A stretch of 64,000 nucleotides of DNA from Patescibacteria group bacterium. GTDB taxonomy: Bacteria > Patescibacteriota > Patescibacteriia > Buchananbacterales > SURF-54. A program made the translations under genes and the position numbers. This document shows positions 10,614-60,985 of the stretch, one piece after another. The stretch spans positions 5,041 through 69,040 of the forward strand of contig JAHIRB010000018.1 of the NCBI GenBank assembly GCA_018818885.1, read 5' to 3'. Position 1 is the stretch's first letter, and each line of letters starts with the position of its first letter. The notes under the pieces are model-generated. The model had not been told where the DNA came from. It made no database searches and saw nothing but the letters and a program-made list of their open reading frames with translations.

Positions 10614-10709
10614 CTTTCTTATTTTTACAAATTATTTTTTTAGTTAATGATGGGTATGTACTCATTTTTTTCTTTGATACTTTTGTAACCAAAAGTATCC
10701 AAAAGTTTT

Positions 10710-10783
10710 GGGGTGGCGAAACTCGCACTTGCCTATGGGAAGGTGTGAGTATACTTTCCACGGGCTCGGACAGTCGCCACCCC
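10710..10783. other. tRNA-sized (74 nt) GC-rich structured element with a 10-bp terminal helix GGGGTGGCGA/TCGCCACCCC
   Basis: Closing helix plus internal hairpins (GCGAAACTCGC). No T-loop consensus, so not called as a tRNA. Lies just upstream of the corA promoter. Confidence 0.3.
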
Positions 10784-10811
10784 AAACCCCAGTCTTTCTA
10801 AGATATTCTCT

Positions 10812-12254: not shown

Positions 12255-12340
12255 GCGGGTATAGTGGTTTATTGTCACTCTCAGCCGCAGAGAGCGGGTA
12301 TAGTATAATGGCTTATTATGTCAGCCTTCCAAGCTGAAGA
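12255..12340 (+). pseudogene. two truncated 5' copies of tRNA-Gly (through the D-arm and through the anticodon arm)
   Basis: GCGGGTATAGTGGTTTATT... and GCGGGTATAGTATAATGGCTTATTATGTCAGCCTTCCAAGCTGAAG match the downstream tRNA-Gly up to the anticodon stem, then diverge. No T-arm. Confidence 0.45.
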
Positions 12341-12380: not shown

Positions 12381-12453
12381 GCGGGTGTCGTATAGTGGTT
12401 TATTATGTCAGCCTTCCAAGCTGAAGAGGGCGGTTCGATTCCGCTCACCCGCT
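12381..12453 (+). tRNA. tRNA-Gly (anticodon TCC)
   Basis: Acceptor GCGGGTG/CACCCGC, anticodon arm TCAGC-CTTCCAA-GCTGA, T-arm GGCGG-TTCGATT-CCGCT. The flanks extend the acceptor helix to 14 bp (ATTAAGAGCGGGTG...CACCCGCTCTTAAT). Folded by hand. Confidence 0.75.
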
Positions 12454-12542
12454 CTTAATACGGGATTTTGGATTCCCGCCTGCCCCGTAAACGACTCTGA
12501 GTTTATCGAATAGAGTTTTACGGGGTTACCCGCTCCATGATA

Positions 12543-15997: not shown

Positions 15998-16200
15998 GTT
16001 TGTATTTATTTTCACCTTCCCCTCCTACACTTCTCGTTTCACTCGAAGTTTTGGAGGGCAGGCAAGTTTACCTGCCGAATCCGCCAGAGGCGGAGAAGGC
16101 AGGCTGAAAATATGGGTTCTGCGCCAGGGGCGCACCAGCCTGGCTGGAATTCCTCTTCACACGCTTTTGACTAGATCATCGCCGAAAGGGTGGTTTTTTA
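15998..16200 (+). other. GC-rich multi-hairpin element (candidate structured RNA or decayed GC-rich repeat) ending in a T-run
   Basis: Consecutive short hairpins CCCTCC..GGAGGG, GGCAGG..CCTGCC, CCGCCAGAGGCGG, TGCGCCAGGGGCGCA and CCAGCCTGGCTGG, then GGGTGGTTTTTT. The ORF 15984-16208 called here is probably spurious. Confidence 0.35.
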
Positions 16201-16295: not shown

Positions 16296-16571
16296 ATGAA
16301 AACAATTATCAACATTAAATCCGACAGAGATATAAAAGAGAAAGCTCAAAAAATTGCTAAAAATTTAGGGTTGCCCCTAAGTACTTTGATCAATGCTTAT
16401 TTACGCCAGCTTATTAGAAATGAAGAGATTCATTTCTCTACTGCCCCTATGATGACGAAAGAACTTGAAGAAACAATAACAATTGCCATGCAAGACTTAA
16501 AGGCCAAGAAAAATGTTTCTCCCACTTTTTCTAGCAAAAAAGTCATGAATGATTATCTTGATTCTTTATGA
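16296..16571 (+). CDS. dinJ: type II antitoxin, RelB/DinJ family
   Basis: 91-aa RHH protein (LGLPLSTLINAYLRQLI). 4-bp ATGA overlap with the downstream toxin. Confidence 0.75.
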   Translation: MKTIINIKSDRDIKEKAQKIAKNLGLPLSTLINAYLRQLIRNEEIHFSTAPMMTKELEETITIAMQDLKAKKNVSPTFSSKKVMNDYLDSL

Positions 16572-16828
16572 AAATAAAGTATCATAAGATATTCACTAAT
16601 AAATTTGGCAAGCTTAAGATAAAAGTACGAGAGAAAGCAAAAGAAAGATTAATAATTTTTTTTGACGATCCATTTAATGAAAGGTTAAATAATCATGCTC
16701 TGCAAGGTAAGTATATAGGATTTCGTAGTATAAATATTAGTGGCGATCTTAGGGCAATATATAAAATGATTAATAATGACACAGTTTTTTTTATTGACTT
16801 GGATACACATAGCAACCTTTATTCTTGA
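16568..16828 (+). CDS. yafQ: type II toxin, YafQ/RelE family mRNA interferase
   Basis: 86 aa. LNNHALQGKYIGFRSINISGDLRAIYKMIN...THSNLY matches the YafQ/RelE core. Confidence 0.75.
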   Translation: MKIKYHKIFTNKFGKLKIKVREKAKERLIIFFDDPFNERLNNHALQGKYIGFRSINISGDLRAIYKMINNDTVFFIDLDTHSNLYS

Positions 16829-16831
16829 TTT

Positions 16832-21671: not shown

Positions 21672-21832
21672 ATTAAGTAAAAAAATACCGTTACGACAAC
21701 GGTATTTTTATGTTGATCCTCAAAGAGGTCACGGCCTCGTAGAACTCATCATAGATAGATTCTACATCATTTACGAGGCAAGCCCCGAAAAATAAATATT
21801 CGGGTCAAGCGGGATTCTTTACTTTTTCAAAA

Positions 21833-21850
21833 AGGCCTGGATGGGATTTT
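21833..21850 (-). pseudogene. duplicated 3'-end fragment of tRNA-Cys (AGGCCTGGATGGGATTTT) about 90 bp downstream of the gene
   Basis: 16/18 identical to the tRNA-Cys 3' region AGGCCTGGACGGGATTCG in the same orientation. GC-rich palindromes lie between the copies. Confidence 0.35.
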
Positions 21851-21938
21851 CCGCCTGCGGCGGATGCGCCCGCTTCGACTCCGAAGAGAGGCGAGCCTCT
21901 GGCGCAGAACCTTAAACCTAGAACATTCAAAACCAATA

Positions 21939-22012
21939 AGGCCTGGACGGGATTCGAACCCGTGAATAGAGGTTTTGCAGACCCCCGCCTTAGACCACTT
22001 GGCTACCAGGCC
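21939..22012 (-). tRNA. tRNA-Cys (anticodon GCA)
   Basis: rc reads GGCCTGG-TA-GCCAAGTGGTCTAAGGC-GGGGT-CTGCAAA-ACCTC-...ACGGG-TTCGAAT-CCCGT-CCAGGCC-T. Flanked by a perfect 14-bp inverted repeat CATTCAAAACCAAT/ATTGGTTTTGAATG. Folded by hand. Confidence 0.75.
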
Positions 22013-22036
22013 ATATTGGTTTTGAATGATTATTAT

Positions 22037-22136
22037 GCGAATAGAGGTTTTGCAGATTTACCCCGCAAAATGAGTCACGTTACGTATAACTGAATTTCTG
22101 CGGGGCTTCCGCCTTAGACCACTTGGCTACGTGACC
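22037..22136 (-). pseudogene. tRNA-Cys-like 5' half with an altered acceptor arm, a 52-nt hairpin insertion and no T-arm
   Basis: rc GGTCACG-TA-GCCAAGTGGTCTAAGGC, then hairpin CCCCGCA...TGCGGGG, then TCTGCAAAACCTCTATTCGC. D-arm and anticodon loop are identical to tRNA-Cys. Confidence 0.35.
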
Positions 22137-22247
22137 TCTCTAGGGACCAATTTTATCTCGCCGAAGTTCCGCGTCAGCGGAACGTAGGCGGAAAATGCAC
22201 TTTTCAAATATAGCAGAATATTAATAATTATTCAATAGTCATAACGG

Positions 22248-22271
22248 AGGCGACATTGGCCAATGTCGCCT
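22248..22271. repeat. perfect 24-bp palindrome AGGCGACATT-GGCC-AATGTCGCCT
   Basis: Perfect dyad. The same 10-bp arms recur at 59576-59599 with a CGCG centre. Confidence 0.5.
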
Positions 22272-22349
22272 GTTGATTTATATCCTTGATTTTTATCATA
22301 CAATAAAGTAAAATATATTCATACTTTATAATAATTAATTTAAAAAAAT

Positions 22350-22679
22350 ATGATGGAATCAAGAGAAGGAGAATCGCAAGGCAATCTAGAGAATATCCTT
22401 AGCGAAATGGATAGAGCATCAGAAGCAATGAAGGGTTGGACTGACGATACATTTGATGAAAAGCGTAAAGCAGCTATTGAAATTTTAGGAATAGGACGTG
22501 CTTTAGATGAGTCTGGCCCTTTACAGGAACTTCAACAATTGATAGAACAAGGGTCTTTAAGTGATTCTGATCTTGAGAGAGTAAAGGAAAGTATGAAAGG
22601 TGGTTTGTCAACAGCAGATCCTGAGTTTCAGAGAAAGCTACGGGAAATAGGTATCGCAATAAGAGCTCAAGAAAAATAA
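22350..22679 (+). CDS. hypothetical acidic protein
   Basis: 109-aa ORF followed by a terminator. No SD, no family recognised. Confidence 0.4.
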   Translation: MMESREGESQGNLENILSEMDRASEAMKGWTDDTFDEKRKAAIEILGIGRALDESGPLQELQQLIEQGSLSDSDLERVKESMKGGLSTADPEFQRKLREIGIAIRAQEK

Positions 22680-22688
22680 TTTTTACGA

Positions 22689-22722
22689 TAAAATACCTTC
22701 ATTAGAGGGTATTTTATTTTTT
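22689..22722 (+). terminator. intrinsic terminator ATACCTTCATTAGAGGGTAT plus T-run
   Basis: Stem ATACC/GGTAT followed by TTTATTTTTT. Confidence 0.45.
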
Positions 22723-22833
22723 ATTATACTATTTATTATATTATAGTTTACAACATTCGCAATTTAATCTACCATAAGCCATCCTTGATTTATTTAAGCA
22801 TTTGTAGTAGACTCAAGTAGTATAAAAAAATAT

Positions 22834-22975
22834 ACCCGGTAGTAGAATTTCAAATTAAAAGTATGTTATAAAAATTTTACATCGGTTATATATATTATTG
22901 ATTACTTAATATGTTTAATAACAGATATCGAATATATATGCAAAAAAATAACTATTTGAAATTTCACTACCGGGT
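22834..22975 (+). promoter_or_regulatory. 22-bp inverted repeat pair (ACCCGGTAGTAGAATTTCAAAT / ATTTGAAATTTCACTACCGGGT) bracketing the infB 5' region
   Basis: Arms at 22834-22855 and 22954-22975, 21/22 complementary. The second arm abuts the infB ATG. A third copy of the core is at 42132-42150. Confidence 0.3.
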
Positions 22976-24952
22976 ATGAATCTATCAGAACTTGCACGAA
23001 AAATAAGAGTACCAATGGCAGAACTTCGCCTTAAGTTACCGGCGATGGGTTTTGATATTGGCGGACGCGCAATTAAGGTTGATAATCGTGTCGCAAGCAA
23101 GATTATGGCTGATTGGAAAAATTTAAATGCAAAATATGAGGCAGATCGTAAAAAAGATGAAGCAGAAGAAGAGGAAGTAGTTGATAAAACTGCAGAAAAA
23201 CAGATTGTCAAAATTCCAGAATTTATTACAGTCAGAGATTTTTCAGCTAGGCTAGGTATTGGAGTAACTAAAGTTTTAGGTGAACTTATGAAAAACGGAG
23301 TTTTAGCTTCTATGAACGAAAATATTGATTTTGATACTGCTGCAATTATCGCTTCTGAACTTAATTTTGAAGTAGAGCAAGATACTACAGATGCCACACA
23401 AGAAAAAGCAGTCGAAGCTTTAGAAGAAAAATTAAAATCACAAAATAAAAAAGATTTGGTTGAGCGAGCACCAGTAGTTGTTGTGATGGGACACGTTGAT
23501 CATGGCAAAACCAAACTTTTAGATGCCATTAGAATGACAAATGTTGTAGATAATGAGCATGGGGGCATTACCCAACATATTGGAGCGTATCAAGTAGAAA
23601 AAAATAATAGAAAAATTACTTTTATCGATACTCCTGGCCACGAAGCGTTTACTACCATGAGATCACGTGGTGCTAGAGTAGCAGATATTGCAATTTTGGT
23701 TATTGCAGCAGATGATGGTTTTAAACCTCAAACCGAAGAATCACTCAAAATCATAAAATCAGCAGGTATACCTATGGTTGTGGCCATAAATAAGATTGAT
23801 AAACCAGATGCTAATCCAGATATGGTTAAAAAACAACTAGCAGATCATAACTTAACTTCCGAAGAATGGGGAGGAAAGCAAGTTACCGCAGAAATTTCTG
23901 CAAAGAAAAATATTGGTATAGATAGTCTGTTAGATATTGTACTTTTAGTTGCTGATTTAGAAAAAGATAGTCTTAAAGCAAATCCAACAGGGCTAGCAAT
24001 AGGTACAATTATTGAATCTCATGTTGATAAGGGAGAAGGTCCTGTATCAACTGCATTAATTCAAAGTGGCACTCTTAACGCTGGAGATGGTGTATCTGTT
24101 GCAGGAAATTACTATGGTAAGGTTAGGTTACTAAAAAATTATAAAGGCGAAAGTTTAAAAAGCGCAGGGCCATCAGTGCCAGTAAGAATAGTTGGCTTAA
24201 AAGCCTCACCAAGTATCGGAGATATACTACAAGCAGGAGATGTTCAAAAAGCTAAGGTTTCAAAATATCAATTAGATAAACAGGCCACTGGTTTTTCTGC
24301 TGCACACGTAGCAGTTGATGAAGATAATGAAAGTGGTGTCAGCACTTTAAACTTAATAGTCAAAGCAGATGTTTTAGGTTCTTTAGAAGCAATCTTAACA
24401 TCTTTGGAAGCATTAAATCATAAGGAAGTAAAAGCAAAGATCATATCAAAGGGTTTGGGTAATATTACTTCTGCAGACATCGAACAAGCCTCTGCAGGTA
24501 AAGCAGCAATATTTGGTTTTCATGTTATTGCAGATACAGATACTATGAGTTTAGCATCAGAAAAAAAAGTAGAAGTTCAACTCTATGGAGTTATTTATCA
24601 TTTAATTGATGAGGCAAAAAAAAGATTGCAGGCTATGCTTTCACCAGATGTTGTGCAGACTGATCTAGGTCGCTTAAAAGTACTAGCAATCTTTAAAAAG
24701 GAAAAAAATGCTATGATTTTAGGTGGAACAGTCACTAAAGGTAAGATTACCAAGAGTTGTAAAGCTAATGTACTAAGAGACGACGTTAAAATTGGAACTG
24801 GAGACATCACGCAAGTTCAACAAGGGAAAGTTGATGTCAATGAATGCAAGCAGGGCAATGAGTGTGGATTAAGATTTGAAGGAAAACCAATCTTAGCTGA
24901 AGGTGATTTTATTGAATGTTTTTTAGAGGAAGTTAAAGAAAAGATATTGTAG
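22976..24952 (+). CDS. infB: translation initiation factor IF-2
   Basis: GTPase motifs [13 protein letters not shown] and NKID, and full-length IF-2 architecture. 658 aa. Confidence 0.9.
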
Positions 24953-24970
24953 TGTATAAATTTGTAATAT

Positions 24971-25312
24971 ATGTCTGAGCGTATTCTTCGCATAAACGAA
25001 CTTATTCGTCAACATGTTAACGAATTATTGTTAACAGAAGTTGATTTTCCTAAAGGCTGTTTAGCAACTATAGTACAAGTAGAAACATCTAAAGATCTTC
25101 GTCACAGTAAAATTTATATCAGTGTACTGCCAGTAAAATATACTTCAAAAGTTATTAATAAATTAAAACATAATATAGGAAAAATTCAGCATCAACTCAA
25201 GAAAAGACTAAGTCTAAAACCTCTACCACGCATATCATTTGCCATAGATAGAACCGAAAAAGAAGCAAATGATATTGAATTGCTCCTTGACAGCATCAAG
25301 AAATCAAGCTAA
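24971..25312 (+). CDS. rbfA: ribosome-binding factor A
   Basis: 113 aa. Conserved infB-rbfA gene order and RbfA-like sequence (RINELIRQHVNELLL). Confidence 0.8.
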   Translation: MSERILRINELIRQHVNELLLTEVDFPKGCLATIVQVETSKDLRHSKIYISVLPVKYTSKVINKLKHNIGKIQHQLKKRLSLKPLPRISFAIDRTEKEANDIELLLDSIKKSS

Positions 25313-25323
25313 TATAGTTAGCT

Positions 25324-26301
25324 ATGATTACAACGCAATTAGCCGAGAAAATACACAGTCAAATCAATAACAGCACAAAGATTATGCTAGTAGCCCATCA
25401 AAACGCTGATGGGGATGCTTTAGGCGCACTGTGTGCTATGTATGTATATTTGAAGGATTTAGAAAAGCAAGTTTTTATCTACTCACCAGAAGCTGTAATA
25501 AACAAATATCAGTTTTTACCATACATCGAACATGTCAACTCAGATATAGAAGCAGCTAAAGCTTTTGATCCAGATTTGATTATTGTTTTAGATACTGGCG
25601 ACTTAAGACACGCAGGGCTTGCTGATCATTTAGAAGATTTTTCTAAACCAAAAATAATCAACATTGATCACCACCCCACCAATGAAAATTATGGGCACAT
25701 CAATTTAGTTAGAACTCAAGCAGTTTCTACAAGCGAGATCATCCTGCAATTTTTCAAAATAATAAAATTTCAAATTACAAAAGAGGTAGCTACTTGTCTT
25801 TTAACAGGAATTATATTTGATAGCAACAATTTTACTAATCCAAACACAACTTTATCATCTTTACAAGCAACTGCTGAATTACTAAAACTTGGCGCGCGAA
25901 TGCCACAAGTAAACGACAATTTTATCAGAAATAAAAGCTTAGAAACTCTACAACTTTGGGGTGATGTACTTTCAAGATTAAAATACGACGAAGAATACGG
26001 TACCGCAACTACAGTAGTTACAAAAAAAGATTTAAAAAAATATAACCTGGAACCCGAAGCTTACGATGGCATATCTAATTTTTTAAATAATTTGGGCGGT
26101 GTCAAGGCATCTATTTTATTAAAAGAAGAAGAAGGTGGTATAATTAGAGGTAGTATGAGAACGAATTCTGATAATGTTGATTTATCGGAATTAGCGAAAA
26201 CACTCGGTGCTGGCGGAAAAGGTGGTGGGCATAGGAAGGCCGCGGGGTTTACAGTCAAGGGGAAGTTGCGCGAGACAGACACGGGATGGGAAGTTGTGTG
26301 A
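25324..26301 (+). CDS. DHH/DHHA1 phosphoesterase (NrnA-like nanoRNase / pAp phosphatase)
   Basis: DHH motifs HQNADGDALGA and DHH, C-terminal GGGH (DHHA1). Follows rbfA as in many bacteria. Confidence 0.75.
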   Translation: MITTQLAEKIHSQINNSTKIMLVAHQNADGDALGALCAMYVYLKDLEKQVFIYSPEAVINKYQFLPYIEHVNSDIEAAKAFDPDLIIVLDTGDLRHAGLADHLEDFSKPKIINIDHHPTNENYGHINLVRTQAVSTSEIILQFFKIIKFQITKEVATCLLTGIIFDSNNFTNPNTTLSSLQATAELLKLGARMPQVNDNFIRNKSLETLQLWGDVLSRLKYDEEYGTATTVVTKKDLKKYNLEPEAYDGISNFLNNLGGVKASILLKEEEGGIIRGSMRTNSDNVDLSELAKTLGAGGKGGGHRKAAGFTVKGKLRETDTGWEVV

Positions 26302-26390
26302 ATTAGCGATAGGGCGATAAAGCGATAAAGCGATAAAGTTAATTGGAGATGAAAAATTTTGAAAACTCCATCGCTCCATCGCTTTATAAC
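26302..26390. repeat. inverted repeat built from tandem AGCGATAAAG-like octamers
   Basis: AGCGATAGGGCGATAAAGCGATAAAGCGATAAAG ... CCATCGCTCCATCGCTTTAT. Confidence 0.4.
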
Positions 26391-26410
26391 TCTATTAACT
26401 CAACAAAACT

Positions 26411-26986
26411 ATGCAACTTATACCAACAGTTATCGAAAAATCACACATGGGCGAACGCGCCTACGACATCTACTCTCGTTTGCTAAAAGAGCGAATCATT
26501 TTTTTAGGTTCACCAATAGATGATGTGGTAGCAAACACTGTTATTGCTCAACTTTTATTTTTAGAATCAGAAGATTCAAAAAAAGATATCAAAATTTATG
26601 TTAACTCCCCTGGTGGTTCGGTAACAGCAGGTTTGGCAATTTATGATACCATGCAATATGTAAAACCAGATGTTATGACAATTTGTGTTGGTTTGGCAGC
26701 AAGCATGGGAGCAGTACTTTTATCTTCAGGAAAAAAAGGAAAAAGAATAGCATTGCCTAATTCAGAAATTATGCTTCATCAAGTAATGGGTGGTGCAGAA
26801 GGCCAAGCAGCAGATATTAAAGTACGTGCAGAACATATCTTAAAAATACACGCTAGACTTAATCAAATACTGGCAAAACATACTGAACAGCCATTAGCAA
26901 AAATTGAAAAAGATACAGATAGAGATTTCTTTATGTCTGCAGAAGAAGCCAAGAAATATGGCTTAGTAGATAAGATTATCAAGTAG
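26411..26986 (+). CDS. clpP: ATP-dependent Clp protease proteolytic subunit
   Basis: 191 aa. [25 protein letters not shown] and a catalytic GLAASMGA serine motif. Confidence 0.9.
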
Positions 26987-33693: not shown

Positions 33694-33835
33694 GATGCGC
33701 GCAGAGGGACCCCCTTCGATTTACTCAGGGTAAGCGAACCCCCGCCTGTCCTCCGAATCCACCTCCGGCGGAGTAGGAGGAACCGTTTGCTTAACCCCGT
33801 ACAATGCTCGCGTGAGCTCGCATATACGGGGCAAG
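33694..33835. other. GC-rich hairpin cluster adjacent to tRNA-Lys
   Basis: Hairpins CTCCGGCGGAG, TCCTCC..GGAGGA and CCCCGTA...TACGGGG. Shares short GC modules with the other GC islands in the window. Confidence 0.3.
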
Positions 33836-33858
33836 GAGTCAACAATTTTTCATTTCTT

Positions 33859-33932
33859 TGCGCCCAGAGGGATTTGAACCCCCGACCATTTGCTTAAGAG
33901 GCAACTGCTCTACCAGCCTGAGCTATGGGCGC
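33859..33932 (-). tRNA. tRNA-Lys (anticodon CTT)
   Basis: rc GCGCCCA-TA-GCTCAGGCTGGTAGAGC-A-GTTGC-CTCTTAA-GCAAA-TGGTC-GGGGG-TTCAAAT-CCCTC-TGGGCGC-A. Folded by hand. Confidence 0.75.
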
Positions 33933-34009
33933 ATAATTAATGTGATTAATAGTTATGTAGATATTTTGGGTTGAGTGTACAAATGATAAACGATGAAAAA
34001 TAAAATAAT

Positions 34010-34038
34010 GCGGGTCTACCAGGCTGAGCTATGGGCGC
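34010..34038 (-). pseudogene. truncated 5' fragment of tRNA-Lys (acceptor plus D-arm only)
   Basis: rc GCGCCCATAGCTCAGCCTGGTAGACCCGC, about 90% identical to the 5' 27 nt of tRNA-Lys and lying 5'-upstream of it. Confidence 0.4.
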
Positions 34039-34064
34039 ATATTTAAGAGGACTATTATTATAAG

Positions 34065-34137
34065 CGCGCCCGGTAGGAGTCGAACCTACAACCCCTTGGT
34101 CCGAAGCCAAGTGCTCTATCCATTAAGCTACGGGCGC
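34065..34137 (-). tRNA. tRNA-Arg (anticodon TCG)
   Basis: rc GCGCCCG-TA-GCTTAATGGATAGAGC-A-CTTGG-CTTCGGA-CCAAG-GGGTT-GTAGG-TTCGACT-CCTAC-CGGGCGC-G. Folded by hand. Confidence 0.75.
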
Positions 34138-34143
34138 ATAAAT

Positions 34144-34410
34144 TTATTTTTTTAATGAATTTTTTATTCTTACTTTTAAGAATTCTCTTTGTTGACCTTT
34201 ATTTTTTATCTCTAACTCACGTTTCCTAGCATCTGTTTTAGAAATATATGCTTCATAGTAAACAAGTGATAATGGCCTTCTGCTTTTAGTTGATTTCACT
34301 TTGCCAGTATTATGATCGACTACTCGTTTTTTAAGATCTCCACTTATACCATAATATAGTTCATTATCCAACTTACTTTTTAAGACATAGAAATAATATA
34401 TATTAAACAT
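34144..34410 (-). CDS. GIY-YIG nuclease-domain protein (YhbQ/UPF0213-like)
   Basis: 88 aa. YYFYVLKSKLDNELYYGISGDLKKRVVDHNTGK..STKSRRPLSLVYYEAY matches the GIY-YIG consensus. Confidence 0.75.
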   Translation of the reverse strand: MFNIYYFYVLKSKLDNELYYGISGDLKKRVVDHNTGKVKSTKSRRPLSLVYYEAYISKTDARKRELEIKNKGQQREFLKVRIKNSLKK

Positions 34411-34454
34411 TTATTCATTTGGTCCGCCCGCCTGCGGCGGGTCCGCCGTAGGCG

Positions 34455-34488
34455 GAAAGCCAAGCGCTCTATCCAGTTGTCCCGACGC
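34455..34488 (-). pseudogene. degenerate tRNA-Arg-like D-arm-region fragment upstream of the GIY-YIG gene
   Basis: GAAAGCCAAGCGCTCTATCCAGTTGTCCCGACGC versus tRNA-Arg GAAGCCAAGTGCTCTATCCATTAAGCTACGGGCGC. Embedded in GC-rich hairpins (CCGCCTGCGGCGG). Confidence 0.3.
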
Positions 34489-38419: not shown

Positions 38420-38459
38420 ATCAACGTTTTGGCCTGGGGTGTTGTTTTTGACCTCCCCC
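38420..38459 (+). terminator. intrinsic terminator CCCCAGG...CCTGGGG plus TGTTGTTTTT
   Basis: 7-bp GC stem and a T-rich tail ending the three-gene operon. Confidence 0.5.
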
Positions 38460-38608
38460 TGTCCTCCCCCTCGAAGAGGGGGAGGGACTCGTTTAAGTAT
38501 GTAATGTGTAAAAATAATGTCTGACTACTACAAACTTACAAACATCCTTAACCGAGTTCCCCCTCCTTTATAAGGAGGGGGACAGGGGGAGGTCAAAATA
38601 CAAAAAGC
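38456..38608. mobile_element. MITE-like element with perfect 17-bp terminal inverted repeats (TTTTGACCTCCCCCTGT / ACAGGGGGAGGTCAAAA)
   Basis: Each terminal repeat abuts an internal C8/G8 hairpin (CCTCCCCC-TCGAAGA-GGGGGAGG and CCCCCTCC-TTTATAA-GGAGGGGG). About 70 bp of AT-rich core. No ORF. Confidence 0.35.
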
Positions 38609-38677: not shown

Positions 38678-41293
38678 TTATATAAAGGTGACTGTTGCTA
38701 CAGAATCACCACCTTCTTTAAATCTCATCAACCTGACACCTTGAGTTGCTCTACCTATCACGTTAACTGTTTTAAGTGGCAATCTAATAACTTGCCCTTT
38801 TTTAGAAATAATAATTGCGTCTTCATCTACTGCTTTAGAATTTACTACACTAAAGTATACAATCTTTCCTGTCTTTGGGGTAATTTTCGCAGTTTTGATT
38901 CCAGAACCACCTCTACCTTGGGTTTTAAACGAACCTAGTACACTTCGTTTACCAAAACCATTTTCCATCACCACTAAAACTTGTCCAACTTTTGTCAAAA
39001 CTGAATCAATAATATCCATGCCTACAACATCGTCACCTGCTTTTAGTCGAATTCCTCTAACGCCACCAGCTCCTCTACCCATAGATCTAACACTTGATTC
39101 TTTGAATTTAATTGCTTGGCCGTCTGCTGTTACAAGCATGATGTCGTCTTTTCCTGTTGAAGGTTTTACCCATTCGAGTTCATCTTTTTTACGTAAGCGT
39201 ATAGCAATTAAACCTGAACGTCTTACATTATCAAGATCAGAAATAACAACTTTTTTAGTGAATCCATTCTTGGTAACCATGACTAAGAATTTATAATCTG
39301 CTAATTCAGTCAATGGTAATATCGAAGTTACCTTTTCGTCGGAACTAAGTTGCAAGAAATTTACAATTGCTTGTCCCTTTGAGGTTCTAGAAGTTTGTGG
39401 AATGTCGTAAGCTTTAAGTTGGAATACACGTCCGGTGGTAGTAAAAAATAGTACATCTGAATGTGTCATAGTAGTAAAGAAGTGTTCTACGAAGTCTTCT
39501 TCCTTAGTAGTTAATCCAATAACACCTTTACCACCACGCGTTTGTGTTTTAAAAGTATCAGGAGGTAGACGCTTAATATAACCAGCTTGCGTCATGGTAA
39601 TGATTGTTTCTTCGTTTGGAATTAAATCTTCTTGTTTAAATTCTTTGACACTGCCAGCAACAATTTCTGTTCTACGTTTATCGCCAAACTTTTCTTTTAT
39701 TTCGGTTAATTCTTTTTTGATTACACCCAAAATTTTTGCAGGAGATTTAAGTAGTGCTTCTAATTCTTTTATCAAATCTTTCTTTTCTTTTAGTTCTTGT
39801 TCCACCTTTAGTCTTTCAAGTCCAGCTAGTTGTTGCAACTTCATTTCCAAAATTGCCACGGATTGTCGTTCGGATAATTTAAATTTCTTAATCAAATTAA
39901 TTTTGGCAACTTCCCTATCTTTTGATTTTTTGATTGTACTTATGATGGCATCAATTTTTATTAGCGCCATCCTCAATCCTTCTAGAATATGTGCTCTATC
40001 TTTTGCTTTGGCTAGGTCGTATTCTGCTCTACGTCTGACCACTTCCTGTCTATGTTTAATATATTCTTCTAATACCATTTTCAACGTCAAAACTCGAGGC
40101 TGAATACCATCAACAAGCGCTAACATGTTGACGTGAAAAGTTGTCTGAAGATCAGTTAGTTTAAAAAGTCGATTTAAAATCTTTTTAGGATAAGTATCTT
40201 TTTTTAGTTCAATGACTACTCGTACTCCATCTTTTGAAGATTCATCACGTAAATCTTTTATACCTTCGATTTTTTTGTCTTTGATTAATTCTGCCAATCT
40301 TTCTAAAACAGTTGCCTTGTTAACTTGATACGGAACTTCTGATACAAGTATTCTATGTGCTCCTTTGTGTTCTACAATTTCAGTTTTTGCACGCATTACA
40401 ATGCCACCTTTTCCTGTGGCGTATGCTTGTTTTATTTCTTTTGCATCGTAAATAATAGCACCAGTTGGAAAATCTGGGCCTTTAACATACTGCATTAAAT
40501 CGTCTACGTTAGCATCTTTGTTATCAATTAAATGTATGATTGCATCAACTAGTTCTGATAGGTTATGCGGTGGGATATTGGTTGCCATTCCAACTGCAAT
40601 GCCTAAAGTACCGTTTAAGAGCAAGTTGGGCAGTTTTGCTGGCATGACTAGTGGTTCTTTTATGGTACCGTCGTAATTTGGACTAAAGTTAACGGTATCT
40701 TTATCAATATCATTTAAAAGTTCATCTGCAATACTTTCAAGTTTTGCTTCTGTGTAACGCATAGCAGCAGCGCGGTCGCCATCCATAGAACCAAAATTAC
40801 CTTGGCCATTAACCAAGGGATAACGTAAGGAAAATTCTTGTGCCATCCTAACCATGGAATCGTAAACTGCAGTATCACCATGAGGATGGTATTTACCTAA
40901 AACTTCACCAACTACTGTAGCAGATTTTCTAAACTTCGCAGAAGATCTAAGACCAATAGTCCACATAGCATATAAAATACGTCTGTGAACTGGTTTTAAA
41001 CCGTCACGCACATCTGGTAAAGCGCGAGCAACAATAACAGACATAGCATAGTCGAGATAGCTTTCTTTTACCTCGTCCACAATGGGTCGTTTTTGCACTT
41101 TACCGACACCTGCTTGTTCTACAACTCCGTTTACAGTCAAAGCTTGTTCTAGTGGAGCTTCTTTTGGTTTTTCAGCCTTCTTGTTTTTAGGTTTAGCACT
41201 AGCTTGCTTTTTGGAAGCAGGCTTTTTGGTGGGCTGTTTTCCGCCAGAGGCGGATCGGCCTTTGGAGGATTTAGTTGTTTTATTCTTCGGCAT
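38678..41293 (-). CDS. gyrA: DNA gyrase subunit A with a roughly 60-aa Lys-rich N-terminal extension
   Basis: [33 protein letters not shown] GyrA N-terminal motif, preceded by [39 protein letters not shown]... 871 aa. Confidence 0.9.
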
Positions 41294-59562: not shown

Positions 59563-59575
59563 AGATTCTCTCCGT

Positions 59576-59697
59576 AGGCGACATTCGCGAATGTCGCCTG
59601 CCGCTGTTAGATTTAATTTTTTCGTAGGCGACACGCCCGCTTCGACAAGCCCGCCTAGCCGTCGAGGCTGGCGAAGCGAGGCGAGTCGACGTGTCGC
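59576..59697. repeat. GC-rich palindrome cluster: AGGCGACATT-CGCG-AATGTCGCCT, then GCGACACG...CGTGTCGC enclosing GCCCGCTTCGAC and GAGGCGAG modules
   Basis: The first palindrome shares its 10-bp arms with 22248-22271. GCCCGCTTCGAC also occurs at 21868-21879. Confidence 0.5.
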
Positions 59698-60861: not shown

Positions 60862-60904
60862 ATGATTATTCCTTTTGTCTTTTCGACCGATGTTAAATAT
60901 TATA

Positions 60905-60985
60905 CCTGGAGACCAGCCAGAGGCTGGTGTTCGCCAGAGGCGAATCTGCCTTTGGCATGACGCCTCTGGCGCAGATCTCACATCA
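60905..60985. repeat. GC-rich hairpin cluster (CCAGCCAGAGGCTGG, TTCGCCAGAGGCGAA, CGCCTCTGGCG)
   Basis: Three hairpins with AGAG-type loops. The CCGCCAGAGGCGG variant occurs at 16075-16089. Confidence 0.4.

What the first reader, a model, noticed from the sequence alone, without database searches (positions are those of the whole stretch)
21735..22271. tRNA-Cys locus embedded in GC-rich palindromes, partial tRNA copies and a perfect 24-bp palindrome
The 600 bp between the alpha/beta-hydrolase gene and ORF 22350 contain no protein gene. They contain:
- the hairpin CCTCGTAGAA...TTCTAC...TACGAGG
- CCGCCTGCGGCGG
- GCCCGCTTCGAC and GAGGCGAGCCTC modules
- the tRNA-Cys 3'-end duplicate, the tRNA itself inside 14-bp inverted flanks, and the 5'-half pseudo-copy with its hairpin insertion
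- GTTCCGCGTCAGCGGAAC
- the perfect palindrome AGGCGACATTGGCCAATGTCGCCT

The modules recur at 34420-34440, 59576-59697 and 60905-60985. This looks like the footprint of a small GC-rich non-autonomous element family that targets or accumulates around tRNA genes.
Basis: seen in the sequence. Interest (0 to 1): 0.55.

Follow-up and report, generated by a model that had tools for sequence, protein, structure and literature searches.

The report
Dead tRNA-Cys pieces around live copy
This stretch holds one working tRNA-Cys gene nested inside the broken halves of older tRNA-Cys genes, all studded with small GC-rich hairpins; it looks like the relic of a nuclease-linked selfish cassette that invades tRNA genes in ultra-small (CPR) bacteria while carrying a spare tRNA.

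Summary
The host is an AT-rich Patescibacteria (CPR) bacterium.

The region is not a loose pile of palindromes. It holds one intact tRNA-Cys (21939-22012, minus strand) nested between the two halves of an older tRNA-Cys. The acceptor strands of those halves (GGTCACG / CGTGACC) pair with each other, not with the live gene. A second displaced 3' fragment lies downstream. The dead pieces carry GC-rich hairpin inserts.

All four tRNA genes in the window have such partial copies. At tRNA-Arg, 12 kb away, the unit is complete: tRNA fragment, double hairpin, an intact 88-aa GIY-YIG nuclease gene, then the intact tRNA.

Homologues of that nuclease in 76 non-redundant metagenomic loci sit next to a same-strand tRNA about 27 times more often than background. 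About half of those tRNAs have the same partial copies.

My reading: an ORF-less relic of a hairpin-plus-nuclease cassette that targets structured-RNA genes. It resembles the Ssn/NTS hairpin-nuclease systems and phage SegB. I found no description of the tRNA-in-tRNA form in CPR. The mobility mechanism is inferred, not shown.

The parts
21939..22012 (-). Intact tRNA-Cys(GCA), the only canonical copy. Acceptor stem GGCCTGG/CCAGGCC, discriminator U73.
   Evidence: ARAGORN; Rfam RF00005, 65.3 bits, full length.
22013..22028 (-). 5' arm of the AT-rich inverted repeat that extends the acceptor stem of the intact tRNA (CATTCAAAACCAATAT).
   Evidence: the repeat finder I1: 23-nt arms, 96% complementary. 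The helix is predicted in the fold.
21924..21938 (-). 3' arm of the same inverted repeat (TATTGGTTTTGAATG).
22109..22136 (-). Older tRNA-Cys, 5' piece a: acceptor 5' strand GGTCACG plus the D-arm (roughly tRNA positions 1-27).
   Evidence: 22 nt identical to the live tRNA, but 3 of 7 acceptor positions differ.
22057..22108 (-). 52-nt hairpin insert in the anticodon-stem region of the older gene. Arms are CCCCGCAGAAAT / ATTTTGCGGGG. Its shape matches the inverted repeats that flank GIY-YIG ORFs elsewhere (for example L109), but here no ORF is enclosed.
   Evidence: Replaces GGG of the live gene; compared.
22037..22056 (-). Older tRNA-Cys, 5' piece b: anticodon loop, 3' side of the anticodon stem, variable loop and the first 2 nt of the T-stem (TCTGCAAAACCTCTATTCGC).
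   Evidence: 18 nt identical to the live tRNA. The GC ending matches the relatives' TATTCGCGGG.
21726..21779 (-). Older tRNA-Cys, 3' piece: T-arm position (stem GCCTC/GAGGC with a 36-nt AT-rich hairpin where the loop should be), then acceptor 3' strand CGTGACC and U73.
   Evidence: CGTGACC is the exact complement of GGTCACG at 22130-36, and it is followed by T as in tRNA-Cys.
21713..21733 (-). 3' arm of the outer 21-nt inverted repeat that closes the whole nested unit. Its partner is 22130-22150.
   Evidence: the repeat finder I2, 81% complementary. On the tRNA-sense strand 3 of the 4 mismatches are G-U, giving 20 of 21 pairs.
22130..22150 (-). 5' arm of the outer inverted repeat, including the acceptor 5' strand of the older gene.
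21828..21849 (-). Second displaced 3' fragment: AAATCCCATCCAGGCCT plus 5 nt of trailer. Its T-stem and acceptor are of the type seen in the closest relative, L023.
   Evidence: D4 direct repeat, 90%; L023 tRNA-Cys ends CCCATCCAGGCCT.
21850..21906 (-). GC-rich hairpin insert in the T-loop of that fragment: TGCGCC...GGCGCA with nested modules, then TCCGCCGCAGGCGGA.
   Evidence: Preceded by AAGGTTC (21907-13) and followed by AAATCCC, so it lies after C56 of a T-loop. Weak match to the double-hairpin model (E=0.086). Same layout as L078 and L073.
21780..21817 (-). Further debris: a T-loop/acceptor-like fragment GAATCCCGCTTGACCC, and the hairpin CCCGAA...TTCGGGG with a tail complementary to the start of the 52-nt insert.
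   Evidence: (I10). The tRNA-fragment reading is by eye.
22159..22196 (-). Nested hairpin upstream of the older gene: GTTCCGC-TGAC-GCGGAAC set inside CGCC...GGCG.
   Evidence: the repeat finder I7.
22248..22271 (.). Perfect 24-nt palindrome AGGCGACATTGGCCAATGTCGCCT. It belongs to a second hairpin type, also found at 59576-59599 and, with an insert in its loop, at 59626-59697.
   Evidence: I9; 92% match to 59576-59600.
34144..34410 (-). Intact 88-aa single-domain GIY-YIG nuclease gene. Its stop codon lies 6 nt before tRNA-Arg.
   Evidence: ORF; PF01541, E=1.3e-14; 273 homologues, mostly CPR; nearest solved structures are UPF0213 proteins.
34426..34456 (-). Double hairpin TCCGCCTACGGCGGA-CCCGCCGCAGGCGGG followed by C, inserted in the anticodon loop of a tRNA-Arg fragment. 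The insert is 30 nt (34427-34456); the C at 34426 belongs to the tRNA.
   Evidence: 46.1 bits, E=1.8e-8 against a model built only from other organisms' ORF-proximal double hairpins.
34457..34475 (-). tRNA-Arg fragment, from the D-arm to anticodon position 34. It continues as CGGACCAA at 34419-34426, beyond the hairpin.
   Evidence: 19 nt, 95% identical to tRNA-Arg.
34064..34137 (-). Intact tRNA-Arg(TCG), immediately downstream of the nuclease gene.
12255..12340 (+). Two 5' fragments of tRNA-Gly separated by a hairpin. Their acceptor is GCGGGTA, against GCGGGTG in the live gene (12381-12454).
   Evidence: 47 nt at 91% and 15 nt at 100%.
12464..12536 (+). 3' debris of tRNA-Gly: GGATTCCCGCC, a 46-nt hairpin insert, then TACCCGCTC, which is the complement of the fragments' GCGGGTA.
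34015..34039 (-). 5' fragment of tRNA-Lys (positions 1-25), lying between tRNA-Arg and the live tRNA-Lys (33858-33933).
   Evidence: 25 nt, 96%. In relatives Arg and Lys are 18 nt apart with no fragment.
33697..33722 (-). 3' fragment of tRNA-Lys (GGGGGT-CCCTCTGCGCGC) at the end of a GC-rich island.
   Evidence: Read from the sequence.
16066..16148 (+). Hairpin-module island not next to a tRNA. It includes TCCGCCAGAGGCGGA and GGTTCTGCGCCAG..., the latter shared with 21899-21911.
   Evidence: double-hairpin model E=0.017.
60904..60975 (-). Hairpin-module island between msrA and msrB. It shares TCTGCGCCAGAGGC with the tRNA-Cys locus.
   Evidence: model E=0.03.
59573..59697 (+). Hairpin island between two co-directional genes. 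It holds a copy of the palindrome and a GTCGAAGCGGGCG module shared with 21867-79.
41237..41269 (+). A further copy of TCCGCCAGAGGCGGA with a neighbouring hairpin, in the spacer upstream of gyrA.

Best explanation
The interval 21713-22271 is a layered tRNA-Cys locus.

Shown by the sequence:
- One intact tRNA-Cys gene sits, within its own 23-bp extended stem, inside the two halves of an older tRNA-Cys gene.
- The acceptor strands of those halves pair with each other but not with the live gene.
- A further displaced 3' fragment lies downstream.
- Each dead piece carries GC-rich hairpin inserts in or beside what used to be tRNA loops.

Shown by comparison:
- The same layout recurs with a small GIY-YIG nuclease gene in it: tRNA 5' fragment, GC-rich double hairpin followed by C, a few more tRNA bases, nuclease ORF, intact same-strand tRNA, and often a hairpin plus 3' fragment.
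- This fuller form is found at tRNA-Arg in this window and in many independent CPR contigs.
- The same nuclease family is also found inside RNase P RNA and 23S rRNA genes.

Inferred:
- The locus is the ORF-less relic of a hairpin-associated nuclease cassette.
- The nuclease probably recognises its hairpin in single-stranded DNA and cuts nearby, as Ssn nucleases do.
- Repair of the break copies the cassette into a tRNA gene, or amplifies the neighbouring segment.
- Because the tRNA is essential and single-copy in these tiny genomes, only outcomes that leave or bring an intact tRNA survive. The displaced halves persist as decaying fragments.
- The hairpins behave as the non-autonomous part of the system and also spread to ordinary intergenic spacers.
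- The live tRNA is probably transcribed from the older gene's promoter, through the dead 5' half.
For: 1. Nesting and covariation. The 5' piece has GGTCACG and the distal 3' piece has CGTGACC plus U73, extended to a 21-nt inverted repeat. The live gene has GGCCTGG/CCAGGCC. Meanwhile 40 nt of the D and anticodon arms are identical. tRNA-Gly repeats the logic: fragments GCGGGTA / TACCCGC against live GCGGGTG / CACCCGC. So do the foreign loci L060 and L096.

2. All 4 tRNAs in the window have partial copies. None of 6 tRNAs at syntenic or nearby positions in relatives do.

3. An intact GIY-YIG ORF lies between the tRNA-Arg fragment and tRNA-Arg.

4. Among 76 non-redundant homologue loci, 29 have a tRNA within 100 nt. 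All 30 of these tRNAs are on the nuclease's strand and 24 are downstream of it. Density is 2.0 per kb against 0.074 per kb elsewhere in the same loci.

5. 14 of those 30 adjacent tRNAs have partial copies. In L056 and L073 the 5' and 3' fragments add up exactly to one tRNA.

6. Double hairpins end 0-60 nt upstream of the ATG in 12 of 76 loci, against 9 in 272 kb elsewhere. All 12 are followed by C. A model built from them finds the window's tRNA-Arg hairpin at E=1.8e-8 and weaker copies at 16120, 60929, 21850 and 41240.

7. L078 shows tRNA-Cys, then ORF, then double hairpin in a T-loop, then a 3' fragment. That is the layout downstream of the window's tRNA-Cys, with the ORF added.

8. The nuclease family also sits inside RNase P RNA (L080) and 23S rRNA (L077).

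9. Copy number varies: L092 and L093 differ by exactly one 78-nt hairpin-bearing tRNA-Cys unit.

10. Precedents. Ssn nucleases are about 94 aa, single-domain GIY-YIG enzymes. They bind hairpin repeats as ssDNA and cut beside them, their genes are flanked by those repeats, and the C after the palindrome is critical (PMC11893778). Phage SegB is enriched next to tRNA genes and drives segmental amplification of a tRNA gene (PMC13096335).

11. Promoter-like sites lie only upstream of the older 5' half. The 438-nt unit folds as nested helices, z = -8.6.
Against: - There is no nuclease ORF or detectable remnant at the tRNA-Cys locus itself (tblastn). The link rests on shared architecture.
- The tRNA-Cys hairpins match the double-hairpin model only weakly (E=0.086, 13-16 bits).
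- No closely related genome was found (best IF-2 identity 66%). There is therefore no true filled-versus-empty pair at the strain level and no direct evidence of movement.
- Breakpoints within the tRNA vary (D-arm, positions 26-30, 34/35, about 43-50, 55/56). This fits poorly with one sequence-specific homing site.
- What protects the intact tRNA copy from the nuclease is unknown.
- The hairpins do not fit the published SRM consensus (0 hits). The protein's nearest solved relatives are UPF0213 proteins, not shown to be Ssn.
- The double hairpins were picked by a perfect-stem filter, so their high pairing statistics are partly circular.
- Three of 10 tRNAs far from the ORF in the same contigs also have fragments. 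The ORF is therefore not needed locally for the scars to persist.
Confidence: 0.62

Rival explanations
1. Local duplication and decay plus an unrelated REP-like hairpin family. The tRNA-Cys region was duplicated in tandem by slippage or unequal recombination and the extra copies decayed. GC-rich hairpins (terminator- or REP-like stabilisers) accumulated independently. The GIY-YIG gene at tRNA-Arg is incidental to this locus.
For: No nuclease ORF or remnant at tRNA-Cys. Hairpin islands also occur between ordinary genes. Tandem arrays of partial tRNA units exist elsewhere (L092). Tandem duplication is the simplest source of nearby partial copies.
Against: The outer 5' and 3' pieces share three compensatory acceptor differences from the inner gene, while 40 nt are identical. 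This is unlikely for independently decaying copies of one duplicated gene. The same nested layout, with hairpins at the same loop positions, recurs with the nuclease ORF in many unrelated contigs. The tRNA association of the ORF is 27-fold.
Confidence: 0.17
2. Attachment-site scars of integrase-type integrative elements or prophages. These elements repeatedly integrated into, and were deleted from, tRNA-Cys, leaving direct repeats of the tRNA ends.
For: A 21-nt direct repeat of the tRNA 3' end lies 106 nt downstream (D4). Partial tRNA genes are a known by-product of element integration (PMC9897764).
Against: No integrase, recombinase or transposase domain appears in the Pfam lists for window 12350-64000. 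5' fragments are as common as 3' fragments. The imported unit carries a complete tRNA with both acceptor strands different from the outer halves, which att-type exchange would not produce. Spacers are only 27-110 nt. The only ORF repeatedly associated with this layout is the GIY-YIG gene.
Confidence: 0.1
3. A functional structured RNA: a nested pre-tRNA, a split or intron-containing tRNA, or a tRNA-like leader whose helices are selected at the RNA level.
For: Very stable nested fold (z = -8.6). Three of the four mismatches in the outer helix are G-U on the tRNA-sense strand. Promoter-like sites lie only upstream of the outer 5' half.
Against: A canonical intact tRNA-Cys is present. The outer copy lacks a normal T-loop and has a broken anticodon stem. 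The opposite strand folds almost as well (z = -7.5), as expected for DNA palindromes. There is no Rfam family; the weak YrlA hit merely overlaps the tRNA. Relatives have a plain tRNA-Cys at the syntenic site. No tRNA-splicing endonuclease was looked for in this genome; from general knowledge, bacteria are not known to have one.
Confidence: 0.06

Closest known systems
Ssn nucleases with NTS/SRM hairpin repeats (cd10448 GIY-YIG; Chenal et al. 2025, PMC11893778)
   Same: - A single-domain GIY-YIG protein of about 90 aa.
- The gene is flanked by GC-rich hairpin repeats with a 6-8-bp stem and a 3-4-nt loop, which are also scattered through the genome.
- A conserved C follows the palindrome directly.
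- Some hairpin cores are nearly the same (L078 TCCCGCGAAGCGGGA against NTS TTCCCGCG-MAV-GCGGGAA).
- An IS-like repeat-gene-repeat layout.
   Different: - The published SRM consensus does not match here (0 hits in the window, 2 in 292 kb).
- The protein's nearest solved relatives are UPF0213 proteins, and cd10448 membership could not be tested.
- The repeats here are tandem double hairpins.
- The system sits inside tRNA, RNase P RNA and rRNA genes and is coupled to duplicated tRNA genes. The Ssn paper does not mention tRNA.
- No biochemistry exists for the CPR proteins.
Phage free-standing GIY-YIG homing endonuclease SegB (T4/T6; PMC13096335)
   Same: A GIY-YIG nuclease gene that is significantly co-located with tRNA genes of many isotypes. 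Nuclease activity drives segmental amplification of a segment holding a full-length tRNA gene. The tandem partial tRNA-Cys units in L092/L093 are comparable.
   Different: From memory, SegB is a larger multi-domain protein that recognises double-stranded tRNA-gene sequence. It is found in phages, not cellular genomes. No hairpin repeats and no nesting of a tRNA inside the halves of another are described for it.
GIY-YIG-encoding insertion sequences in CPR rRNA genes (Tsurumaki et al. 2024, PMC11270868)
   Same: Same bacterial group. The GIY-YIG ORFs lie in non-intron insertions located at the tops or bases of rRNA stem-loops. L077 here is such a case.
   Different: That work covers rRNA only and does not mention tRNA. 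It describes no duplicated host-gene halves and no double-hairpin partner.
Partial tRNA genes left by integrative elements (van der Gulik et al. 2023, PMC9897764)
   Same: tRNA fragments next to an intact tRNA are a footprint of mobile DNA.
   Different: Those are integrase att repeats of one tRNA end that bound kilobase-scale elements. Here both ends are duplicated, a complete tRNA is enclosed, spacers are tens of bases long, and no integrase is present.
Free-standing homing-endonuclease ORFs in fungal mitochondria that bring a piece of the target gene and leave the displaced piece as a pseudogene; GC-rich double-hairpin elements of Allomyces mtDNA (recalled from memory, not checked here)
   Same: A GIY-YIG ORF plus a replacement gene segment, with the resident segment left as a fragment. 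Small GC-rich two-hairpin elements in an AT-rich genome inserted in intergenic and RNA-gene regions.
   Different: The targets are protein-coding genes in an organellar setting. No sequence relationship was tested.
REP/BIME elements with RAYT (IS200/IS605-like) transposases
   Same: Short extragenic palindromes in clusters, thought to be mobilised as ssDNA hairpins by a single domesticated enzyme. Some hairpins here begin with GTAG.
   Different: No Y1 transposase was found in the window. The associated protein here is a GIY-YIG nuclease. The hairpins are shorter (15 nt).

Membership tests
Ssn / SRM hairpin-nuclease system | Single-domain GIY-YIG protein of about 90-100 aa | tested here: met
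   88-aa ORF. The only Pfam hit is PF01541, over residues 5-74.
Ssn / SRM hairpin-nuclease system | [quoted passage not shown] | not testable with these tools
   No CDD search and no SsnA sequence were available. The best solved-structure matches are UPF0213 proteins BH0048 (3e-13) and EF2693 (7e-10). There is no NCBIfam hit.
Ssn / SRM hairpin-nuclease system | Gene flanked by its cognate hairpin repeats | tested here: met
   A double hairpin lies 15 nt upstream of the window ORF. The same holds in 12 of 76 loci under strict criteria. Many other loci have 10-20-nt inverted repeats on both sides of the ORF.
Ssn / SRM hairpin-nuclease system | Repeats fit the SRM consensus HGTCWY..YYVSBRH..WNVSBRG..RNCYNB | tested here: not met
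   Regex on both strands: 0 matches in the window and 2 in 292 kb of homologue loci.
Ssn / SRM hairpin-nuclease system | Site-specific cleavage of ssDNA next to the hairpin | not testable with these tools
   Needs purified protein.
Free-standing GIY-YIG homing endonuclease (Seg type) | GIY-YIG catalytic domain joined to a DNA-binding domain that reads a long double-stranded target | tested here: not met
   The protein is 88 aa, the catalytic domain alone.
Free-standing GIY-YIG homing endonuclease (Seg type) | Enriched next to tRNA genes | tested here: met
   27-fold higher tRNA density within 100 nt of the ORF, all on the same strand.
Integrase-type tRNA-targeting integrative element | Tyrosine or serine recombinase gene between att repeats | tested here: not met
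   No such Pfam domain in window 12350-64000. The spacers are too short to hold a gene.
Integrase-type tRNA-targeting integrative element | Direct repeat of one end of the tRNA only | tested here: not met
   Both 5' and 3' fragments are present, and they enclose a complete tRNA.
REP / RAYT | IS200/IS605-like Y1 transposase in the genome | tested here: inconclusive
   None in the 64-kb window. The rest of the genome was not seen.
Split or intron-containing tRNA | The pieces together encode the only functional copy and carry a splicing motif | tested here: not met
   A canonical uninterrupted tRNA-Cys is present. The outer copy lacks a T-loop and half of its anticodon stem.
Any Rfam RNA family other than tRNA | Match at the gathering score | tested here: not met
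   Only tRNA passes. The best other hit is YrlA at 22 bits against a cut-off of 69, and it overlaps the tRNA.

The most novel reading that the evidence does not exclude
CPR bacteria may carry a so-far undescribed kind of selfish element. It would be a minimal (about 85 aa) hairpin-guided GIY-YIG nuclease gene travelling with a complete replacement tRNA gene, lodged inside the resident tRNA gene of the same type at hairpin-marked loop positions. This gives a 'tRNA-in-tRNA' arrangement. The host could not delete the element without losing an essential single-copy tRNA, so the element would be addictive. Its 15-30-nt hairpins would spread further as non-autonomous copies into other tRNAs, RNase P RNA, rRNA and intergenic spacers. 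The tRNA-Cys locus would be an ORF-less, multi-generation relic of this process.
Probability: 0.4. Interest if true: 0.8.

Novelty: new variant of a known kind. Interest (0 to 1): 0.64.

Why it matters
Practical consequences:
- tRNA counts and pseudo-tRNA calls in CPR genomes will be confused by these fragments.
- Assemblies tend to break at such loci. Many homologues sit on contigs of 0.5-2 kb.

Biological consequences, if the model holds:
- It links three observations that have been treated separately: small orphan GIY-YIG (UPF0213/Ssn-like) genes, GC-rich hairpin repeats, and insertions in structured-RNA genes of CPR bacteria.
- It offers a concrete, testable model for how a nuclease with no DNA-binding domain finds its targets, namely through hairpins in single-stranded DNA.
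- It shows how an element could invade an essential single-copy gene without killing the host, by bringing a spare copy.
- It gives candidate substrates for new programmable ssDNA nucleases.
- It gives a possible route for horizontal replacement of tRNA alleles in organisms thought to depend on DNA uptake.

Tried and rejected
- Rfam, at gathering and permissive thresholds, found nothing but the tRNA. The weak YrlA and SpF39 hits are chance or overlap the tRNA.
- I first considered tmRNA, a group I intron, an archaeal-type split or intron-bearing tRNA, and a giant-virus or mitochondrial origin. All were dropped: ARAGORN and Rfam give one canonical tRNA, and the neighbouring genes are bacterial (IF-2, RbfA, RNase Y, ClpP).
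- The ORF next door (22350-22679) has no homologues outside this organism. A look-up of its JGI variant failed.
- The genome-contig scan with IF-2 returned only distant chance matches at 44% identity or less. The closest IF-2 anywhere is 66% identical. Strain-level or genus-level comparison of the locus was therefore impossible.
- The Logan contig L002 ends exactly at the tRNA 3' end. I considered this as a sign of a population polymorphism, but a de Bruijn-graph branch at a conserved tRNA is expected in any metagenome, so I did not use it.
- The idea that long inverted repeats flanking the intact tRNA are a general feature of nuclease-adjacent tRNAs was not supported. The median extension is 2 nt for both adjacent and distant tRNAs. 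It holds only for tRNA-Cys and tRNA-Gly in the window and for L073 and L096.
- No target-site duplications were found for the double hairpins.
- The published SRM motif does not match.
- A search for GIY-YIG remnants at the tRNA-Cys, tRNA-Gly and tRNA-Lys loci found none.
Full report
**Setting.** The window is part of a 79-kb metagenomic contig (ENA ERZ27247128). It is identical to contigs from other assemblies. GC content is 34%. The gene content is bacterial (IF-2, RbfA, ClpP, RNase Y, RNase III). The best IF-2 matches carry Parcubacteria, Buchananbacteria and Patescibacteria names, at no more than 66% identity. The host is therefore a CPR bacterium with no close sequenced relative.

- Between the terminator of the alpha/beta-hydrolase gene (21681-21709) and ORF 22350 there is no credible protein gene.
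- GC content rises from about 30% to about 50%.
- The hairpin motifs are far above chance. CCGCCNNNGGCGG occurs 5 times against 0.00 expected. GCCAGRGGC occurs 7 times against 0.26. GC-rich 6-bp-stem hairpins number 17 against 1.8.
- The claimed recurrences at 34.4, 59.6 and 60.9 kb are confirmed, and there are more at 16.1 and 41.2 kb.

**Anatomy of the locus, read on the minus strand, which is the tRNA sense strand.** A promoter-like site lies at 22235-22207. After it come, in order:
- A nested hairpin (22196-22159).
- The 5' part of an older tRNA-Cys (22136-22037). Its acceptor strand is GGTCACG. Its D-arm and anticodon arm are 40 of 40 identical to the live gene. A 52-nt hairpin replaces three bases of the anticodon stem. 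The piece stops two bases into the T-stem.
- Eight AT-rich bases.
- The intact tRNA-Cys within a 23-bp extended stem (22028-21924).
- The remnant AAGGTTC.
- A 57-nt GC-rich hairpin insert (21906-21850).
- AAATCCCATCCAGGCCT plus trailer (21849-21828).
- More debris (21817-21780).
- A hairpin at the T-arm position, with the stem GCCTC/GAGGC (21779-21734).
- CGTGACC followed by T (21733-21726).

Three points follow from this layout:
- AAGGTTC, the 57-nt insert and AAATCCCATCCAGGCCT together form a T-arm and 3' end with the insert sitting after C56 of the T-loop.
- CGTGACC is the exact complement of the upstream GGTCACG, and it carries the U73 discriminator typical of tRNA-Cys.
- The pairing extends 14 nt further. 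It reaches 20 of 21 pairs if G-U is allowed, and three of the four DNA mismatches are G-U on this strand.

The outermost pieces are therefore the two halves of one former gene. Its acceptor stem differs from the live gene (GGCCTGG/CCAGGCC) at three compensated positions. Independent decay of tandem copies would not produce that. An older gene has been split by a segment that carries a complete tRNA-Cys.

The inner displaced 3' fragment has the T-stem and acceptor sequence of the closest relative's tRNA-Cys (L023). At least three tRNA-Cys versions have therefore left traces here.

**The pattern is not confined to tRNA-Cys.** All four tRNA genes in the window have partial copies within 50-400 nt.
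- tRNA-Gly has two 5' fragments and a 3' fragment. Their acceptor bases (GCGGGTA / TACCCGC) pair with each other and differ from the live gene. A 46-nt hairpin is inserted in the 3' debris.
- tRNA-Lys has a 25-nt 5' fragment and a 3' fragment at the end of a GC-rich island.
- tRNA-Arg is the informative case. A fragment that runs from the D-arm to the anticodon stem carries a 30-nt double hairpin (TCCGCCTACGGCGGA CCCGCCGCAGGCGGG). It is inserted exactly between positions 34 and 35. Eight more tRNA bases follow. Then comes an intact 88-aa ORF with a GIY-YIG catalytic domain and nothing else. Six bases after its stop comes the intact tRNA-Arg.

**Relatives have empty sites.** In contigs of relatives with conserved synteny (infB-rbfA-DHH-clpP-rny on one side, the T2SSE-family ATPase gene followed by tRNA-Arg and tRNA-Lys on the other), tRNA-Cys is a plain gene just upstream of infB. 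Arg and Lys are 18 nt apart. There is no nuclease gene, and none of the six tRNAs examined has a partial copy.

**The nuclease family and tRNAs.**
- The ORF has 273 homologues at E<=1e-5, mostly named from CPR phyla. Many sit on very short contigs.
- A scan of metagenome contigs with an alignment of 33 homologues returned 80 loci, 76 of them non-redundant.
- In 29 of the 76 loci a tRNA lies within 100 nt. All 30 such tRNAs are on the ORF's strand. Twenty-four lie downstream, usually 3-20 nt after the stop codon.
- tRNA density there is 2.0 per kb, against 0.074 per kb in the rest of the same loci.
- The isotypes are varied: Glu, Cys, Asp, Trp, Lys, Gly, Ala, Ile, Ser, Leu and Arg.
- Fourteen of the 30 adjacent tRNAs have partial copies of themselves. 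Typically a 5' fragment lies upstream of the ORF and often a 3' fragment lies downstream.
- In L056 (tRNA-Cys) the fragments 1-33, 34-54 and 55-72 add up exactly to one tRNA. In L073 (tRNA-Asp) the fragments 1-58 and 59-74 do the same. In both loci the fragments surround the ORF plus an intact tRNA.
- In L060 and L096 the outer halves again have mutually complementary acceptor strands that differ from the inner gene.

**The hairpins are part of the same unit.**
- At the break in the 5' fragment there is almost always a GC-rich insert. It is most often two adjacent hairpins, each with a 6-bp stem and a 3-5-nt loop (for example TCACCCTTCGGGTGA CCACCCGTAGGGTGG).
- The insert sits in the anticodon loop (after position 34 or 35), the T-loop (after 55 or 56), the D-arm, or, in tRNA-Cys, at positions 26-30.
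- It is followed by 5-12 more tRNA bases and then the ATG.
- Under strict criteria such a double hairpin ends 0-60 nt upstream of the ATG in 12 of 76 loci. Only 9 occur in the remaining 272 kb. All 12 begin with T and are followed by C.
- The stems covary: 8 of 12 pairs show changes on both sides. The set was chosen by a perfect-stem filter, so the pairing percentage itself is not independent evidence.
- A covariance model built only from foreign loci finds the window's tRNA-Arg hairpin at 46 bits (E=1.8e-8), in the tRNA-sense orientation. It finds weaker copies at 16120, 60929, 21850 and 41240.
- In several loci the hairpin element is directly repeated on both sides of the ORF-plus-tRNA segment (L056, L060, L073, L053, L095, L092).
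- L078 has tRNA-Cys, then the ORF, then a double hairpin in a T-loop, then a 3' fragment. That is exactly the arrangement downstream of the window's tRNA-Cys, with the ORF added.

**A second arrangement.** In many loci the ORF lies between 10-20-nt inverted repeats of the type CCCCCACACC.../...GGTGTGGGGG. The 52-nt insert in the window's older tRNA-Cys has arms of that form (CCCCGCAGAAAT / ATTTTGCGGGG, compare L109), but they enclose only 22 nt.

**Other host genes.** Members of the family also sit inside an RNase P RNA gene (L080) and a 23S rRNA gene (L077). That agrees with the reported GIY-YIG-encoding, non-intron insertions at stem-loops of CPR rRNA (PMC11270868).

**What the protein is.**
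- Its only domain is PF01541.
- The closest solved structures are the uncharacterised UPF0213 proteins BH0048 and EF2693. Weak matches to the I-TevI catalytic domain and to SLX1 follow.
- The best functional analogue in the literature is the Ssn family. These are about 94 aa, single-domain GIY-YIG enzymes that bind a GC-rich hairpin repeat only as single-stranded DNA and cut a few bases away. Their genes are flanked by the repeats in an IS-like layout. The base most critical for binding is the C immediately after the palindrome (PMC11893778).
- The C after every ORF-proximal double hairpin here, and near-identical hairpin cores in some loci, fit that picture.
- However, the published SRM consensus does not match, and clade membership could not be tested. 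I therefore claim 'works like', not 'is a member of'.
- The other analogue is phage SegB. It is a GIY-YIG homing endonuclease that is statistically associated with tRNA genes and drives segmental amplification of a tRNA gene (PMC13096335).
- L092 and L093 are otherwise identical but differ by one 78-nt hairpin-bearing tRNA-Cys unit (3 copies against 2). This shows the same kind of instability, unless one assembly collapsed a repeat.

**Proposed mechanism.**

Shown:
- The nested architecture.
- Its recurrence with the nuclease gene.
- The fixed position and orientation of the hairpins.
- The empty sites in relatives.

Inferred:
- The nuclease recognises its hairpin in single-stranded DNA, during replication, transcription or DNA uptake, and cuts beside it.
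- Repair copies hairpin, ORF and tRNA into a tRNA gene, or duplicates the neighbourhood.
- An intact tRNA must survive because the gene is essential. The displaced halves decay.
- ORF-less derivatives and solitary hairpins remain, or spread as non-autonomous copies.
- Carrying a complete replacement tRNA would also make the cassette hard to lose.
- In the tRNA-Cys locus the live gene is probably transcribed from the old promoter, through the dead 5' half.

Open problems:
- The breakpoints in the tRNA vary.
- What protects the intact copy is unknown.
- There is no ORF remnant at tRNA-Cys.
- Three of 10 tRNAs far from the ORF in the same contigs also carry fragments.
- No strain-level presence/absence pair is available.

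**Novelty.** Full-text searches found nothing that links GIY-YIG genes, hairpins and duplicated tRNA genes in CPR bacteria. The library is incomplete, so this is absence of evidence only. The components are known kinds: hairpin-guided small GIY-YIG nucleases, nuclease-driven tRNA amplification, and gene fragments left by mobile DNA. The combination, a complete tRNA nested in the hairpin-marked halves of its predecessor, is best called a new variant of a known kind.

Noticed in passing
window 10707-10786: An 80-nt GC-rich stem (GGGGTGGCGA...TCGCCACCCC, 13-nt perfect inverted repeat) lies in the spacer between two plus-strand genes. It has no Rfam match. It could be a small structured RNA or another hairpin element.
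   Followed up: no
window 38446-38598: A perfect 19-nt inverted repeat (TTTTGACCTCCCCCTGTCC / GGACAGGGGGAGGTCAAAA) encloses about 115 nt with C/G-run hairpins, just upstream of gyrA. It resembles the inverted repeats that flank GIY-YIG ORFs elsewhere, but no ORF is enclosed.
   Followed up: partly
L002 (Logan SRR6514274), equal to window 21939-26584: This independent assembly ends exactly at the 3' end of tRNA-Cys. That is probably a graph branch at a conserved tRNA, but it could reflect strain variation downstream of the tRNA.
   Followed up: partly
L092 2831-3064 and L093: Tandem array of 78-nt units follows an intact tRNA-Cys. Each unit is a tRNA-Cys without its 5' acceptor strand and with a hairpin in place of positions 26-30. 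One sample has three units and another has two.
   Followed up: partly
L080 208-849 and L077 126-3028: A GIY-YIG ORF lies inside an RNase P RNA gene (the Rfam match spans 642 nt for a 367-nt model). Another lies in a 2.1-kb insertion in 23S rRNA, near model position 2650.
   Followed up: partly
L095 130-263: A full-length tRNA-Trp copy carries two hairpin inserts, in the D-loop and the anticodon loop. It lies directly upstream of the GIY-YIG ATG, and an intact tRNA-Trp lies downstream.
   Followed up: no
window 22350-22679: A 109-aa ORF between the tRNA-Cys locus and infB has no Pfam or NCBIfam match and no homologue outside this organism among 5.8 billion proteins. In relatives tRNA-Cys abuts infB, so this ORF lies in lineage-specific DNA.
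   Followed up: partly
window 16296-16830 (L001 3947-4479): A DUF6364/YafQ-type antitoxin-toxin pair lies immediately downstream of the hairpin island at 16.1 kb.
   Followed up: no
L025 597-627: A double hairpin matching the model (27 bits) occurs in a relative's contig, far from any tRNA or GIY-YIG gene in the stretch seen.
   Followed up: no
L081 1111-1166; L043 3811-3837; L062 5119-5138: In contigs that carry the nuclease, tRNAs more than 700 nt from it also have partial copies. One of them has a 15-nt insert. These are ORF-less scars like the window's tRNA-Cys locus.
   Followed up: partly
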